From NCBI RefSeq assembly GCF_988242995.1, contig NZ_OZ547043.1: a stretch of DNA of 64,000 nucleotides, one strand, 5' to 3'. Below, in pieces: positions 12,001 through 18,000 of this stretch. Numbering within the stretch: position 1 is the stretch's first letter; each line of letters starts with the position of its first letter. The position numbers are program-made.

Positions 12001-15000
12001 CGAATGGCGGGATGGACGTGGTTGATTTCCGCCTCTCGACGGTGGGCGTGACCGCGAACTTAAGCAGCACCGCCGCGCAGGCTACTGGCTTTAACACCTC
12101 GACATTTACCAATATCGAAGGCATTTCCGGCTCGAATTTTAACGACACTCTGACCGGCAGCAGCGGCGATAACCAACTGGAAGGGCGCGGCGGTAACGAC
12201 ACGCTCAACATCGGCAACGGCGGCCACGACACCTTGCTCTATAAACTGCTCAACGCCAGCGACGCGACCGGCGGCAACGGCTCAGACGTGGTGAATGGCT
12301 TTACGGTAGGGACATGGGAAGGCACCGCCGACACCGATCGCATTGATATCCGCGAGTTGTTACAGGGCAGCGGCTACACCGGCAACGGTAAAGCCAGCTA
12401 CGTCAACGGCGTGGCAACGCTGGATGCGCAGGCCGGAAACATCGGTGATTTTGTCAAAGTCACCCAGAGCGGCAGCGACACCATCGTACAGATCGACCGC
12501 GACGGCACGGGCGGCACTTTTGCGACAACTAACGTGGTCACGCTGACGGGCGTGCACACCGACCTCGCCACTTTGCTGGCGAATCATCAGTTGATGGTGG
12601 TGTAGATAATGAAAAAAAATGCCCAGTCCGTGGAAGCCTGGCTGGAGGCGATGATCGCCGTGGCGCGCTATTACCGCCTTGATTTTTCTCAGGAGAATGT
12701 GCGCGCGACCGTCAACTGGGAGCGCGACAGTAAGCGGGAGGAGTTACTCACCGACATGGCGCGGCAACTGGGAATGGGGCTTCGGCTGGTGGAGTTCTCC
12801 ACCGACTCGCTCAACCCCTGGCGGCTGCCGTTGATCGCCGTTTTTGATAATCAACAAATTGGCGTGATCACCCGCCGTGACAATCACGACAATATCAGCG
12901 TTCAGTTCAGCGGTGACGAAGGGCTGGAAACTACGCTTAACGTCGCGGATGTTGAGGATAAAATCGTTGAACTGGCGCTGCTGCGCCCGCTCAGCGCCAT
13001 CCCTGACGCGCGGGTGGATGACTACATTCGCCCGTATCAGGCGAACTGGTTCTGGAATCTCTCGCTAAAAGACTGGCGGCGCTATGGCGATATTATGCTG
13101 GCGTCACTGGTGGCGAACGTGCTGGCGCTGGCGGCGATGATTTTCTCGATGCAGGTTTACGACCGGGTGGTTCCGGCGCAGTCCTACCCGACGCTGTGGG
13201 TGCTGTTCGCCGGGGTGATGATGGCGATCCTGTTTGAATTCTGTATGCGCATGGTGCGCACGCACCTTTCCGATGTGATTGGTAAGCGGGCAGATCTGCG
13301 CATTTCGGATCGCGTTTTTGGTCACGCATTACGGCTGAAAAACAACGTGCGATCGAAATCCACCGGATCGTTTATCTCGCAGATCCGCGAGCTGGAATCG
13401 GTGCGGGAGCTGATTACTTCCACCACCATCGGCGCGGTGGCGGATCTGCCGTTCTTCCTGCTGTTTGTCTTTATTCTGTGGATGATTGGCGGCTGGCTGG
13501 TGCTGGTGGTTTTGCTGGCGCTGCCGTTGCTGGTGATCCCCGGCCTGCTGGTGCAACGCCCGCTGGCGCGGCTGGCGAACGAAGGGATGCGCGAGTCGGC
13601 GGTGCGTAACGCTACGCTGGTGGAAGCCGTGCAGTCGATTGAAGACATTAAACTGCTGCGCGCCGAACAGCGTTTTCAGAATCAGTGGAACCACACCAAC
13701 GACGTGGCCTCGTCCATCAGCATGAAGCAACGTTTTCTCACCGGGCTACTGCTCACCTGGACTCAGGAAGTGCAATCCATCGTCTACGTCGTGGTGCTGT
13801 TGGTGGGCTGCTTTATGGTAATGAACGGTGACATGACCACCGGCGCGCTGGTCGGGACGACGATCCTGGCTTCGCGCACCATCGCGCCGCTGTCGCAGAT
13901 ATCCGGCGTGCTCTCGCGCTGGCAGCAGGCGAAAGTGGCGCGCAACGGACTTGATGAACTGATGAAGCGCCCGGTGGATCAGCCGGAACACGGCAAACTG
14001 GTGCATAAAGCGGTGCTACACGGCAATTATCAGTTCAGCAACGCTATCTTTTATTACGATGAAGAAGAGAAAATTGCCGATGTGGCGATTGGCAAACTCA
14101 ACATCCAGGCCGGAGAGAAAATCGCCATTCTCGGGCGCAACGGCGCGGGTAAATCAACGCTACTGCAAATGCTCGCCGGAATGCGTATCGCCCAGCAAGG
14201 GCAGGTGCTGCTGGATAACATCAGTATCGGGCAACTTGATCCGGCAGATCTGCGCCGCGACATGGGGCTACTGAGCCAGACCGGACGACTGTTTTTCGGC
14301 TCGCTGCGGGAAAACCTCACCATGGGGATGCCGGAGGCCAGCGATGAAGATATCGAACGCGCATTAACACTCAGCGGGGCGCTGCCGTTTGTGCAGAAGC
14401 AGAAAAACGGCCTCAACTACATGATTCAGGAAGGGGGATTTGGCCTCTCTGGTGGTCAGCGGCAAACGCTGCTGCTGGCGCGGCTACTCATCTCTCAACC
14501 CAATATCGTGCTGCTCGATGAACCCAGCGCCTCGCTGGACGAAATGGCGGAAGCGCATTTAATCGAACAACTGAAACAGTGGATTGGCCATCGCACGCTG
14601 ATTATCGCCACTCACCGCACGGCGATGCTGCAACTGGTGGACCGCATTATCGTGATGGATCAGGGGCGGATTGTGATGGACGGCGCGAAAGAGGCCATTT
14701 TGCGTGAACAGGGCGAACCCACGACGCGACGGGTGGTGTTGCAGGAGAAGAATAAGGGGTCTGCCGCATGAATGGACAACTGCAATACAACCGTGGCCTG
14801 ACTGAACCCCGCCTGCCGCGTTCGGCGCTGGCGGTACGCGTTACCGCTGTGATGCTACTCTGTTTTCTCGGCTGGGCGTGGTACTTCCAGCTTGATGAAG
14901 TCACCACCGGCAGCGGCACGGTAGAACCTTCCGGGCGCGAACAGGTGGTGCAGTCGCTGGAAGGCGGAATTCTGTATCATCTCGACGTCAAGGTTGGCGA

Positions 15001-18000
15001 TATTGTTGAACAGGGCCAGCCACTGGCGCAGCTTAACCGCACCAAAACGGAATCCGACGTCCAGGAAGCAATGTCGCGGCTGTACGCGGCGCTGGCAACC
15101 TCGGCGCGGCTGCGGGCGGAAGTGAGTAATAAACCGCTGGTCTTCCCTGACGAACTGAATAAATTCCCCGAACTTATCGAGTCGGAAACGGCGTTGTACA
15201 ACACTCGCCGCGATGGGCTGAACAAAGCCACCACCGGGCTGACGCAGGGGATTAGCCTGGTCAACCGCGAACTGGCGATGACCCAGCCGCTGGTAAAACA
15301 GGGGGCGGCGAGCAGCGTTGAAGTGCTGCGCCTGCAACGCCAGGCCAATGAACTGGAAAACAAACTCAGCGACGTGCGCACGCAATACTACGTTCAGGCG
15401 CGCGAAGAGTTAGCAAAAGCCAATGCGGAAGTGGAAACCCAGCGTTCGGTGATCCGTGGACGGGAAGACTCCCTCACCCGGCTCAACTTTACCGCGCCGG
15501 TACGTGGCATTGTTCAGGACATTGACGTCACCACGGTTGGCGGCGTTATTGCCCCCGGTGGTAAACTGATGACCATCGTGCCGCTGGATGAGCAACTGCT
15601 GATCGAGGCAAAAATCTCCCCGCGCGATGTGGCGTTTATCCATCCGGGGCAAAAATCGCTGGTGAAAATAACCGCCTACGATTACTCCATCTACGGCGGC
15701 CTGCCGGGAGAAGTGGCGGTGATATCACCAGACACCGTGCAGGATGAAGTACGGCGCGATGTTTATTACTATCGGGTGTACATTCGCACTTTCAGCAACC
15801 ATCTGGAAAACAAAAGCAAACAGCAATTTCCGATATTTCCCGGCATGGTGGCGACGGTCGATATCCGCACCGGCAAAAAAAGCGTGCTGGATTATCTGTT
15901 GAAACCCTTTAATAAAGCACAGGAGGCGTTGCGCGAACGATGAACATTAGCGATGTAGCAAAAATTACCGGCCTGACCAGCAAAGCAATCCGCTTCTATG
16001 AAGAGAAGGGGCTGGTGACGCCGCCGATGCGTAGCGAAAATGGTTATCGAACCTACACGCAGCAGCATCTCAACGAACTGACCTTACTGCGCCAGGCGCG
16101 CCAGGTGGGCTTTAACCTGGAAGAGAGCGGCGAACTGGTGAATCTGTTTAACGACCCGCAGCGTCACAGCGCCGATGTAAAACGGCGCACCCTGGAGAAA
16201 GTGGCGGAGATCGAACGACACATTGAGGAGCTGCAATCCATGCGCAACCAGCTGTTGGCGCTGGCGAATGCCTGCCCTGGCGATGACAGCGCCGACTGCC
16301 CGATTATCGAAAATCTCTCCGGCTGCTGTCATCATCGGGCGGGGTGAAAATCAGTTAATCCCCGTTTGCACCGAAAGAATATGCTGCAAACTTTCTACCA
16401 TTATGCGCCCCGATTGAAATAAGCCTTCCTGGATTTCATTGTTAACATTCACAGCGTGAACCAGGGAGGCTAATAACACCACTTGCAAGAAGGCAAAAAT
16501 AAACGCACCGATAATCATAATATGCGTCAGGGGGATTTTCCTTTGCTCTTTCATTTTAAATAACCCACAAACTGACCTTCCTTCATTAAGGCGACTTTTC
16601 CCGTGTGGTGATAAACAATGACGTTATAAAGACCTGACTGATAAACAGTGGCATCTTTATTGTCTTCATCAATTGCACATAATGAATCATTGAGATAAGC
16701 AAAGTTCTTACTGCTCATTCTAAAGGTCATGCCAAATCCTTTATAAATAGATTTTTTAGCGGCCTGGGCATGTTGTGCGGCTTCTGCATTTTTAAATGCC
16801 TGCGCTTCTGATGCACTTAAAATAGCCGCCTGACGCTGTTGTTCTGCGAGATAACAGGTGTCATGGCTGACGCCCTGCGCCTGGCAATCTGCGATGCGGG
16901 AAGTGGGTGAACTACAGCCAGCCAGTAATATAACCGCCAGCAGGGAAAACGATTTAATGGAGCTATTCATCATTGTTAACCTTAAATAATGTACGGAAAA
17001 TTGCGAATAAGAAATTGCTGTTAAAATTAGAACGAATATCCCACGCCGACACCCGCACCGAAATCAGATTGTGTATCCGCAGAAATACCTGCTTTAAGTA
17101 CCGTATGCGTTCCGGCATTAAAAGATGTTCCTACAGACACCGCAGATTCACCGTTGTACGTTCCCGCTCCCGCTGACACCATCATCAAGTCACCGGTTTT
17201 CACCTGTGGTTGTGAGGCGATAGCGATGGCAGATGCAGTTCCCGCATTGGCTTCTTTACGATTGTCCTCAACTTCGTTTTTCAGAGAATCGAAATGGTTA
17301 TTGAGCGTGTTAATTTGTTGGCTGTTATCTGCGACCCGTTTTTGCGTGTTGGTTAACTGTTGCTGCGTTTGTGCGGAATCTTGTCTCAGACTTTCAATTT
17401 GCTCATGTGCCTGGACAGACTTCTGCGCCAGACTTTGCATTTGTTTATCGTATTGAGCCCTTTCTTTTTGCTGTTGTGCTGCCACATCGGTTGTCAGTGC
17501 ATTCATTTTCTGCCCTTGTTCCGTGGCAGTGCGCTGATTAGCCTCATTTTGAGCCGCCAGTCTGGCATTAATCATCTCCTGATAATGCGCAGTATTTTGC
17601 GTATCTCCAGTCGCGGCGAGCGTTTTTTGTGTGGCTACGATCTGCGCCTGTTGCTCTGTAATTTGCGTTTGCTGGGCATCAGTTACCGCAGACTGTCGGG
17701 CGTTGATCATGCTCTGATAACGGGCGGTTGTCTGTACATCACCTGTAGCGGCAACGGTTTTTTGTCCTGCGTCAGGATCTGTCTGGACAGTGGGAGTCTG
17801 AGTGGTATCAGGTGTTTCAGAAGGGATGTAGTGATGTTCAGTCAAATAGGTATACGCAGCGGGGCTGTTGTCTGTGCGTTCTAAAAAGCGGGTAATCTTC
17901 TGCTCAATCTCCGATTGCGACATGCCAGAGTTAATGGCTGAAAGCTCTGTTGCCGCCGCTTCAATGGTATCACCAGCTAAAACAACAGGGCTGGATGTTG

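What the first reader, a model, noticed from the sequence alone, without database searches (positions are those of the whole stretch)
12609..15943. T1SS with a cysteine-free N-terminal domain on the ABC transporter and no outer-membrane component in the locus
The first ~200 aa of the ABC protein contain no Cys, so the N-terminal domain cannot be a catalytic C39 peptidase. It is more likely a C39-like substrate-docking domain, as in HlyB-type exporters. No OMF gene is adjacent, implying use of TolC or another unlinked channel.
Basis: partly seen in the sequence, partly recalled or inferred. Interest (0 to 1): 0.4.

Follow-up and report, generated by a model that had tools for sequence, protein, structure and literature searches.

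The report
E. coli giant-adhesin secretion pump (OI-28)
These two genes are the inner-membrane pump and adaptor of an already described E. coli type I secretion system for a giant surface adhesin; the pump's N-terminal domain is a dead C39 protease fold as suspected, and the "missing" outer-membrane channel gene lies just beyond the left edge of the window.

Summary
[quoted passage not shown] The substrate is the giant Ig-repeat adhesin that fills window 3-12605 and runs off the left edge.

It is an LssB/LapB-type transporter, not HlyB-type. It passes the TIGR03375 cut-off, fails the TIGR01846 cut-off, and lacks the Trp and His of the HlyB CLD.

The "no outer-membrane component" claim is a window-edge artefact. 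The window starts about 8.2 kb inside the adhesin gene. In 958 of 958 complete E. coli genomes that carry the adhesin, a dedicated TolC-family gene sits about 100 bp upstream of it. Its deletion in EHEC abolishes adherence (PMC12758282).

The locus is already known and ordinary.

The parts
3..12605 (+). C-terminal 4,200 codons of the giant adhesin (siiEA; rtxA28/rtxB28 in EHEC). It is cut by the left edge of the window; the full gene is about 6,924 codons.
   Evidence: One open frame with no stop before position 3 and 0 Cys in 4,200 aa. It has 24 Big_13 Ig-like repeats and FG-GAP repeats. RefSeq names the orthologue 'BapA-related adhesin SiiEA'. An assembly 99.98% identical to window 2609-24771 calls a 6,924-aa product.
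12129..12233 (+). Weak RTX Ca2+-binding nonapeptide stretch in the adhesin.
   Evidence: Pfam HemolysinCabind, E 8e-4, 19.7 bits, below the 23-bit cut-off; residues 4043-4077 of the translation.
12285..12593 (+). C-terminal type I secretion target domain of the adhesin.
   Evidence: TIGR03661 T1SS_VCA0849, 33.8 bits against a 17.6-bit cut-off; residues 1096-1198 of the translation of 9000-12605.
12609..14771 (+). ABC permease/ATPase of the T1SS (hlyB28 / z0634 orthologue; LssB/LapB family), 720 aa.
   Evidence: TIGR03375, 836.2 bits against a 693.1-bit cut-off, matched over 10-701. Aligns with HlyB 7sgr over 10-700. Residues 1-203 are 99% identical to the O157:H7 orthologue. The start codon lies 3 nt after the adhesin stop.
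12630..12998 (+). N-terminal degenerate C39-like domain (about residues 8-130). Ala10 is at the catalytic-Cys position, Ile84 at the His position and Val78 at the HlyB Trp77 position.
13092..13877 (+). Transmembrane domain of the ABC protein (residues 162-423).
   Evidence: Pfam ABC_membrane, E 1.5e-31.
14034..14714 (+). Nucleotide-binding domain (about residues 476-702) with intact Walker A (GRNGAGKST), signature (LSGGQ), Walker B (VLLDEPS) and H-loop (ATHR).
   Evidence: Pfam ABC_tran, E 1.6e-27. The motifs were read directly from the translation.
14768..15943 (+). Membrane-fusion protein / periplasmic adaptor (hlyD28 / z0635 orthologue), 391 aa. Its start overlaps the ABC stop by 4 nt.
   Evidence: TIGR01843 type_I_hlyD, 327.7 bits against a 208.65-bit cut-off. 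Pfam HlyD_3 and HlyD_D23. Junction sequence.

Best explanation
[quoted passage not shown] The ABC transporter is an LssB/LapB-family homodimeric exporter. Its NBD motifs are intact, and its N-terminal domain keeps the papain-like C39 fold but has lost the Cys/His dyad (Ala10, Ile84), so it is not a peptidase. With the 391-aa HlyD-type adaptor and a dedicated TolC-family outer-membrane protein it forms an envelope-spanning channel. The OMF gene is the first gene of the same cluster, upstream of the adhesin and outside the window. The channel exports the roughly 6,900-aa Cys-free Ig-repeat adhesin encoded directly upstream, C-terminus first, using the adhesin's uncleaved C-terminal signal.

Shown here: gene identities, family membership, the fold and the dead active site, the cluster architecture in orthologous genomes, and (from the literature) the genetic requirement for all components.

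Inferred: the degenerate domain acts as a cytosolic docking or chaperoning platform for the unfolded substrate, by analogy with the HlyB CLD. Also inferred is that the adhesin's N-terminal BapA-prefix module retains it at the cell surface.
For: Family: TIGR03375, 836 bits, above its cut-off; TIGR01843 for the MFP; TIGR03661 secretion domain on the adhesin.

Dead site: A10, V78 and I84 align with HlyB Y9, W77 and H83. Across 78 homologues at 21-83% identity, column 10 is P/A/S and never Cys, and column 84 is V/I/L and never His.

Architecture: ybaT, TolC-family OMP, siiEA, ABC, MFP, cueR in E. coli 266917_2 and in O157:H7. The OMF-adhesin junction is in 958 of 5,426 complete genomes, the same count as the adhesin. 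All 20 further loci fetched through the OMF protein show the OMF upstream of the adhesin. The ends of loci with a 6,924-aa adhesin are colinear with window 1-1722.

Function: single deletions of tolC28, rtxA28, rtxB28, hlyB28 and hlyD28 all reduce adherence and mouse colonisation in EDL933, and the three T1SS genes are complemented (PMC12758282).

Subgroup: LapB-like N-domains that lack both Cys and Trp are already described (bioRxiv 10.1101/198937).
Against: The OMF could not be read in the window's own lineage. The exact 60-mer from the window start was absent from genome contigs, and look-ups reached only other lineages.

No experiment known to me shows what the LapB-type N-domain binds. 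It lacks the Trp implicated in HlyA binding by the HlyB CLD.

The single-sequence Pfam C39 match is below the gathering threshold (15.5-19.1 vs 22 bits).

The EHEC paper measured adherence, not secretion of the adhesin.
Confidence: 0.9

Rival explanations
1. One reading: a HlyB-type exporter whose CLD docks an RTX substrate and which borrows the housekeeping TolC because no OMF is encoded in the locus.
For: No OMF gene lies inside the window next to the ABC/MFP pair. The full-length protein aligns with HlyB. The fold matches the HlyB CLD.
Against: TIGR01846 (HlyB) scores 389.6 bits, far below its 725.55-bit cut-off, while TIGR03375 passes. HlyB W77 and H83 are replaced by V78 and I84. A dedicated TIGR01844 OMF is encoded upstream of the adhesin in all 958 complete genomes with the locus. 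It scores only 66.8 bits against the housekeeping-TolC model, whose cut-off is 495. The delta-tolC28 mutant has an adherence defect although chromosomal tolC is present.
Confidence: 0.04
2. The N-terminal domain is an evolutionary vestige with no role of its own; substrate recognition is done entirely by the TMD/NBD and the adaptor.
For: The catalytic residues are all lost. T1SS ABC proteins of the PrtD type work without any N-terminal domain; TIGR01842 aligns only from residue 162.
Against: The domain is retained at full length across homologues down to 21% identity. P74 is invariant, and W11 (75/78), A19, S27, G55 and P127 are nearly invariant. This indicates purifying selection on something other than catalysis. 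In HlyB the equivalent domain is essential for secretion (review PMC8277102).
Confidence: 0.06
3. The domain is still a peptidase that uses a non-canonical nucleophile and processes the adhesin or another substrate.
For: The papain-like fold is kept. A conserved acidic residue (D103, D/E in 70 of 78) sits near the position of the catalytic Asp.
Against: No Cys or His occurs at the dyad positions in any of the 78 homologues. The only His in the first 200 aa (H93) is not conserved; it is D/E/Q in most members. The substrate carries a C-terminal uncleaved signal domain, not a double-glycine leader.
Confidence: 0.01

Closest known systems
O-island 28 T1SS of EHEC O157:H7 EDL933 (tolC28-rtxA28-rtxB28-hlyB28-hlyD28; z0608, z0609, z0615, z0634, z0635), annotated in RefSeq as the siiEA locus
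   Same: It occupies the same chromosomal site (ybaT ... cueR) in the same gene order. The first 203 aa of the ABC protein are 99% identical, and the MFP-cueR segment is 96% identical in DNA. This is the orthologous system.
   Different: In O157:H7 the adhesin is split into two ORFs of 1,461 and about 5,200 aa. In the window's lineage it is one ORF of about 6,924 aa. The adhesin repeat region is only about 88-96% identical between lineages.
LapB / LssB-type T1SS ABC transporters (TIGR03375; Pseudomonas fluorescens LapEBC-LapA, Legionella LssB)
   Same: It passes the family cut-off. JGI names homologues at 68-75% identity LapB. The N-domain lacks both the C39 Cys and the CLD Trp, as described for LapB-like transporters. 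The substrate is a giant repeat adhesin with a TIGR03661 C-terminal signal and, in orthologues, an N-terminal prefix module followed by a TAAG motif.
   Different: No LapG protease or LapD receptor genes were seen within 10 kb downstream in E. coli or in three other Enterobacterales loci. The gene order here is OMF-adhesin-ABC-MFP.
HlyB C39-like domain (PDB 3ZUA; HlyB/D complex 7SGR)
   Different: About 15% identity. HlyB keeps His83 and has Trp77, whereas here these are Ile84 and Val78. The HlyB family cut-off is not reached. HlyB uses the unlinked TolC, whereas this system has its own OMF gene.
PDB 3B79, N-terminal C39-like domain of a Vibrio parahaemolyticus 'toxin secretion ATP-binding protein'
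   Different: 19% identity. It is a structural-genomics entry, and I found no functional data for it.
Catalytic C39 peptidase domains of PCAT/AMS exporters (PCAT1, ComA, LahT)
   Same: The fold and its position at the N-terminus of a type IV ABC exporter.
   Different: The Cys/His dyad is absent here. The substrates of those exporters are small double-glycine-leader peptides, not a 6,900-aa adhesin.

Membership tests
LssB/LapB-type T1SS ABC transporter (NCBIfam TIGR03375) | Full-length score above the curated family cut-off | tested here: met
   836.2 bits against a 693.1-bit cut-off; residues 10-701 match model positions 2-692 of 696.
LssB/LapB-type T1SS ABC transporter (NCBIfam TIGR03375) | N-terminal C39-like domain lacking both the catalytic Cys and the CLD Trp (Smith et al.) | tested here: met
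   A10 and V78 are at the HlyB Y9 and W77 positions. The family column is never Cys.
LssB/LapB-type T1SS ABC transporter (NCBIfam TIGR03375) | Adjacent giant substrate with a TIGR03661 C-terminal T1SS target domain | tested here: met
   33.8 bits against a 17.6-bit cut-off on the adhesin C-terminus, which ends 3 nt before the ABC start.
LssB/LapB-type T1SS ABC transporter (NCBIfam TIGR03375) | Substrate N-terminal retention module and linked LapG/LapD regulators | tested here: inconclusive
   The adhesin N-terminus is outside the window. In orthologues there is a BapA prefix-like domain (72 bits against a 35-bit cut-off) followed by TAAG at residues 97-100. No LapG/LapD-like genes were seen in the flanks examined. 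The rest of the genome was not searchable.
HlyB-type CLD exporter (NCBIfam TIGR01846) | Full-length score above the curated family cut-off | tested here: not met
   389.6 bits against a 725.55-bit cut-off.
HlyB-type CLD exporter (NCBIfam TIGR01846) | C39-like fold with the catalytic Cys substituted | tested here: met
HlyB-type CLD exporter (NCBIfam TIGR01846) | Conserved Trp77 and His83 of the RTX-toxin CLD | tested here: not met
   V78 and I84 occupy these positions here. The family columns are E/Q/V and V/I/L.
HlyB-type CLD exporter (NCBIfam TIGR01846) | No OMF in the operon; uses housekeeping TolC | tested here: not met
   A dedicated TIGR01844 OMF lies upstream of the adhesin in 958 of 958 complete genomes with the locus. 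The delta-tolC28 phenotype is reported in PMC12758282.
Catalytic C39 peptidase domain (Pfam PF03412 / PCAT exporters) | Cys/His catalytic dyad | tested here: not met
   A10 aligns with PCAT1 Cys21. I84 is at the His position. No Cys or His occurs in these columns in 78 homologues.
Catalytic C39 peptidase domain (Pfam PF03412 / PCAT exporters) | Pfam gathering score | tested here: not met
   15.5 bits (full protein) and 19.1 bits (domain alone) against a 22-bit cut-off.
Catalytic C39 peptidase domain (Pfam PF03412 / PCAT exporters) | Papain-like C39 fold | tested here: met
Complete tripartite T1SS | ABC transporter, HlyD-type adaptor and TolC-family OMF encoded together | tested here: met
   The ABC and MFP genes are in the window. 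The OMF is in orthologous loci only, upstream of the window edge. It was not readable in the window's own lineage.

The most novel reading that the evidence does not exclude
The LapB-type N-domain has a family-specific, nearly invariant Trp11 next to the dead active site, and it lacks the HlyB Trp77. It may therefore recognise something other than RTX repeats, for example the Ig-like repeats or the adhesin's N-terminal prefix module. In E. coli, the conserved TAAG motif after that module would then point to regulated proteolytic release of SiiEA by a still unidentified LapG-like protease, in a species not known to have a LapD/LapG circuit.
Probability: 0.1. Interest if true: 0.5.

Novelty: already known. 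Interest (0 to 1): 0.1.

Why it matters
It matters little as a discovery. The locus is annotated in RefSeq (siiEA plus T1SS genes) and is present in about 18% of complete E. coli genomes. It was characterised genetically in EHEC in December 2025. The Cys-less, Trp-less N-domain of LapB-like transporters was described in 2017/2018.

The useful outcome is a correction. The 'orphan' T1SS without an outer-membrane component is an artefact of where the window was cut. The transporter should be filed as LssB/LapB-type rather than HlyB-type.

What remains open is general to the field: what the degenerate C39-like domain of adhesin exporters actually binds.

Tried and rejected
- An exact 60-mer from the window start was searched in genome contigs to fetch the upstream flank. 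It gave 0 hits, so the source genome is not among the GTDB representatives.
- A single-sequence phmmer search of the N-domain against PDB was only marginal: E 0.044 to the PCAT1 C39 domain. A 78-sequence profile was needed.
- I tried to reach the OMF of the window's own lineage. The exact ABC protein led to GCA_023858725.1 (99.98% identical), but a 10-kb flank cannot span the 20.8-kb adhesin gene. Exact look-ups of two OMF variants returned other lineages only: 92.9% identity in the overlap with window 1-1722, or O157:H7.
- The promoter/terminator consensus scan of 12300-16700 found promoter-like sites at the shuffle expectation (2 vs 2.4). It found no convincing terminator between the adhesin, ABC, MFP and cueR genes, so it was uninformative.
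- Cys absence was considered as evidence in itself and rejected. It has a chance probability of about 0.5 given only 2 Cys in the protein.
- An active peptidase with an alternative nucleophile was rejected on family conservation.
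Full report
**What is at the coordinates.**
The flagged interval holds two co-oriented ORFs. One is 12609-14771 (720 aa, ATG) and the other is 14768-15943 (391 aa, ATG), and they overlap by 4 nt.
- The first has an ABC exporter transmembrane domain (residues 162-423) and an ABC ATPase domain (497-640). Walker A, signature, Walker B and H-loop motifs are intact and readable in the translation.
- The second is a HlyD-type periplasmic adaptor: TIGR01843, 327.7 bits against a 208.65-bit cut-off.
- Directly upstream, ending 3 nt before the ABC start, one frame is open from window position 3 to 12605. This is 4,200 codons with no stop at the left edge and no Cys at all. It contains 24 Big_13 Ig-like repeats, FG-GAP repeats, a weak RTX stretch and a TIGR03661 C-terminal type I secretion target domain.
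- Downstream, cueR starts 4 nt before the MFP stop.
- The G+C content of the adhesin/T1SS block is 0.56-0.63, against about 0.46-0.48 for the genes just after it. This is consistent with an acquired island.

**Checking the observation.**
The ABC protein has Cys only at positions 212 and 401, so 'no Cys in the first ~200 aa' is correct. On its own this says little. With two Cys in 720 residues, the chance that both fall after residue 211 is about 0.5. What matters is the residue at the catalytic position.

**Is the N-terminal domain C39-like?**
The single-sequence evidence is weak. Pfam Peptidase_C39 scores 15.5-19.1 bits against a 22-bit cut-off, and phmmer to the PCAT1 C39 domain gives E 0.044.

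I collected homologues from two searches. I cut out the domain and kept 78 sequences at 21-83% identity to the query.
- The profile finds the Vibrio parahaemolyticus C39-like domain 3B79 (E 1.3e-10), the HlyB CLD 3ZUA (1.7e-6), the PCAT1 peptidase domain (1.7e-5) and the ComA peptidase domain (8e-4).
- 43 of the 78 members match Pfam C39 individually at E <= 0.1.
- An AlphaFold2 model built on this alignment has mean pLDDT 83.8 and pTM 0.73, with pLDDT of 87 or more through most of residues 11-130.
- In Foldseek against the PDB, all 23 hits with E <= 0.001 are C39 or C39-like domains.

**The active site.**
Aligned to the family profile, the residue map is as follows:

| Reference residue | Role | Residue here |
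|---|---|---|
| HlyB Tyr9 (PCAT1 Cys21 position) | catalytic Cys position | Ala10 |
| HlyB Trp77 | CLD Trp | Val78 |
| HlyB His83 (ComA His96) | equivalent of catalytic His | Ile84 |

The significance of these HlyB residues is taken from the review read. The PCAT1 equivalence rests.

Across the 78 homologues, column 10 is Pro/Ala/Ser and never Cys, and column 84 is Val/Ile/Leu and never His. The only His in the first 200 residues (His93) is not conserved. The domain cannot be a cysteine peptidase.

It is nevertheless under selection. Pro74 is invariant, and Trp11 (75/78), Ala19, Ser27, Gly55 and Pro127 are nearly so.

**Which family.**
The full-length protein passes the curated cut-off of TIGR03375 (LssB family, 836.2 vs 693.1 bits) and fails that of TIGR01846 (HlyB family, 389.6 vs 725.55 bits). 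JGI names homologues at 68-75% identity LapB.

Smith et al. already reported that LapB-like transporters of giant adhesins have an N-terminal domain lacking both the C39 Cys and the CLD Trp. They also reported that these transporters form a subgroup distinct from the bacteriocin and RTX-toxin transporters (bioRxiv 10.1101/198937). The present protein fits that description exactly. 'HlyB-type' is therefore the wrong label, although the working analogy (a non-catalytic domain that handles the unfolded substrate in the cytosol) is reasonable. That analogy remains an inference.

**The missing outer-membrane component.**
The region is the siiEA locus of E. coli. About 957-958 of 5,426 complete E. 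coli genomes carry it.
- In strain 266917_2 the order is ybaT, TolC-family OMP (451 aa), siiEA (6,324 aa), ABC, MFP, cueR. All are on one strand, with 108 bp between the OMP and the adhesin.
- O157:H7 has the same order.
- The OMP-plus-adhesin-start segment is present in 958 complete genomes, the same number as the adhesin itself.
- All 20 further loci fetched through two OMP variants also show the OMP immediately upstream of the adhesin.
- The OMP is a TIGR01844 type I secretion TolC-family protein (415.9 bits against a 225-bit cut-off). It is not the housekeeping TolC, scoring 66.8 bits against a 495-bit cut-off.

The exact ABC protein of the window occurs in many assemblies. One of them (GCA_023858725.1) is 99.98% identical to window 2609-24771 and calls a 6,924-aa adhesin. 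The window therefore begins about 8,170 nt inside the adhesin gene. Loci with a 6,924-aa adhesin end colinear with window 1-1722, as that geometry predicts.

The OMF gene thus lies roughly 8.3-9.6 kb to the left of the window. I could not read it in the window's own lineage. That is the one remaining gap.

**Published function.**
The locus is O-island 28 of EHEC EDL933: z0608 tolC28, z0609 rtxA28, z0615 rtxB28, z0634 hlyB28 and z0635 hlyD28.
- Niu et al. (Gut Microbes, December 2025, PMC12758282) showed that each single deletion reduces Caco-2 adherence, pedestal formation and mouse colonisation.
- They complemented tolC28, hlyB28 and hlyD28.
- They showed that the promoter upstream of tolC28 is activated by RstA and responds to Ca2+.
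- The first 203 residues of the O157:H7 ABC protein are 99% identical to the window's.

**Mechanism, with status.**
- Shown: this is a tripartite T1SS gene set with a giant Cys-free Ig-repeat substrate that carries a C-terminal signal. The ABC transporter has a dead C39-like domain. All parts are genetically required for adherence, according to the literature.
- Inferred: the N-domain docks or chaperones the unfolded adhesin before C-terminus-first export.
- Inferred: the adhesin's N-terminal BapA prefix-like module stalls it in the OMF, so that it stays surface-attached as proposed for LapA. In orthologues this module spans residues 5-69 and is followed by a TAAG motif at 97-100.
- No LapG or LapD genes were seen in the flanks examined.

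**Verdict.**
The feature is real but already known and ordinary, so interest is low.

Noticed in passing
window 15845-15943 (3' end of the MFP gene) and cueR 15940-16347: The cueR start overlaps the MFP stop by 4 nt (ATGA). Island-free strains such as K-12 MG1655 still match the window from 15845 onward. They therefore keep the last ~95 bp of the MFP gene as the region upstream of cueR (about 94.6% identity). This looks like a remnant left by deletion of the island, or it means the cueR promoter lies inside the MFP 3' end.
   Followed up: partly
window 16351-18772: A small islet lies between cueR and ybbJ. It has two ORFs without a Pfam match (67 and 140 aa, minus strand), a 338-aa protein with a YadA-like membrane anchor (17027-18043, minus strand; a short trimeric autotransporter) and a 120-aa ORF without a Pfam match. 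The same islet is present in the E. coli loci that carry the T1SS.
   Followed up: partly
window 27555-30882: A 667-aa ORF fuses an N-terminal Hcp domain to a Tle1-like phospholipase catalytic domain (an 'evolved Hcp' T6SS effector). It is followed by two DUF2931 proteins (240 and 222 aa), possibly immunity proteins. The block lies between ybbP and mnmH.
   Followed up: partly
L017 21627-41786, L022-L030 (O157:H7) versus L002-L005, L007: In O157:H7 the adhesin is split into a 1,461-aa N-terminal ORF and a ~5,200-aa C-terminal ORF; the 2025 paper treats these as two RTX proteins. In the window's lineage and many other E. coli it is one ORF of 6,324-6,925 aa. In O157:H7 the N-terminal piece would lack the C-terminal secretion signal.
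   Followed up: no
one search hit H23 (E. coli 042, NC_017626.1) versus PMC12758282 section 5: The 2025 paper reports OI-28 as absent from EAEC (0/10) and ExPEC (0/55). However, the EAEC prototype 042 carries siiEA at 95.6% identity to window 1-6000, and PMC3256949 cites the UMN026 gene ECUMN_0527. The locus is in about 18% of complete E. coli genomes, so its distribution is wider than the paper states.
   Followed up: partly
L001 2632-3831 (adhesin N-terminus, outside the window): A TAAG motif at residues 97-100, just after the BapA prefix-like domain, is identical in all 12 E. coli loci read. From my own knowledge it resembles the di-alanine LapG cleavage site of LapA-like adhesins. No LapG or LapD gene was seen nearby.
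   Followed up: partly
window 3-12605: The 4,200 visible codons of the adhesin contain no Cys at all. Their G+C content is 0.59-0.63, against about 0.46-0.48 in the genes just downstream of cueR (window 16001-22000).
   Followed up: yes
whole window: Housekeeping genes (purK-cysS region, 53000-58000) are at most 97.5% identical to any of 5,426 complete E. coli genomes. The ABC/MFP block is at most 98.0% identical and the adhesin at most 95.8%. The source is therefore a lineage not represented among the complete RefSeq genomes. A draft assembly, GCA_023858725.1, is 99.98% identical over 22 kb.
   Followed up: partly
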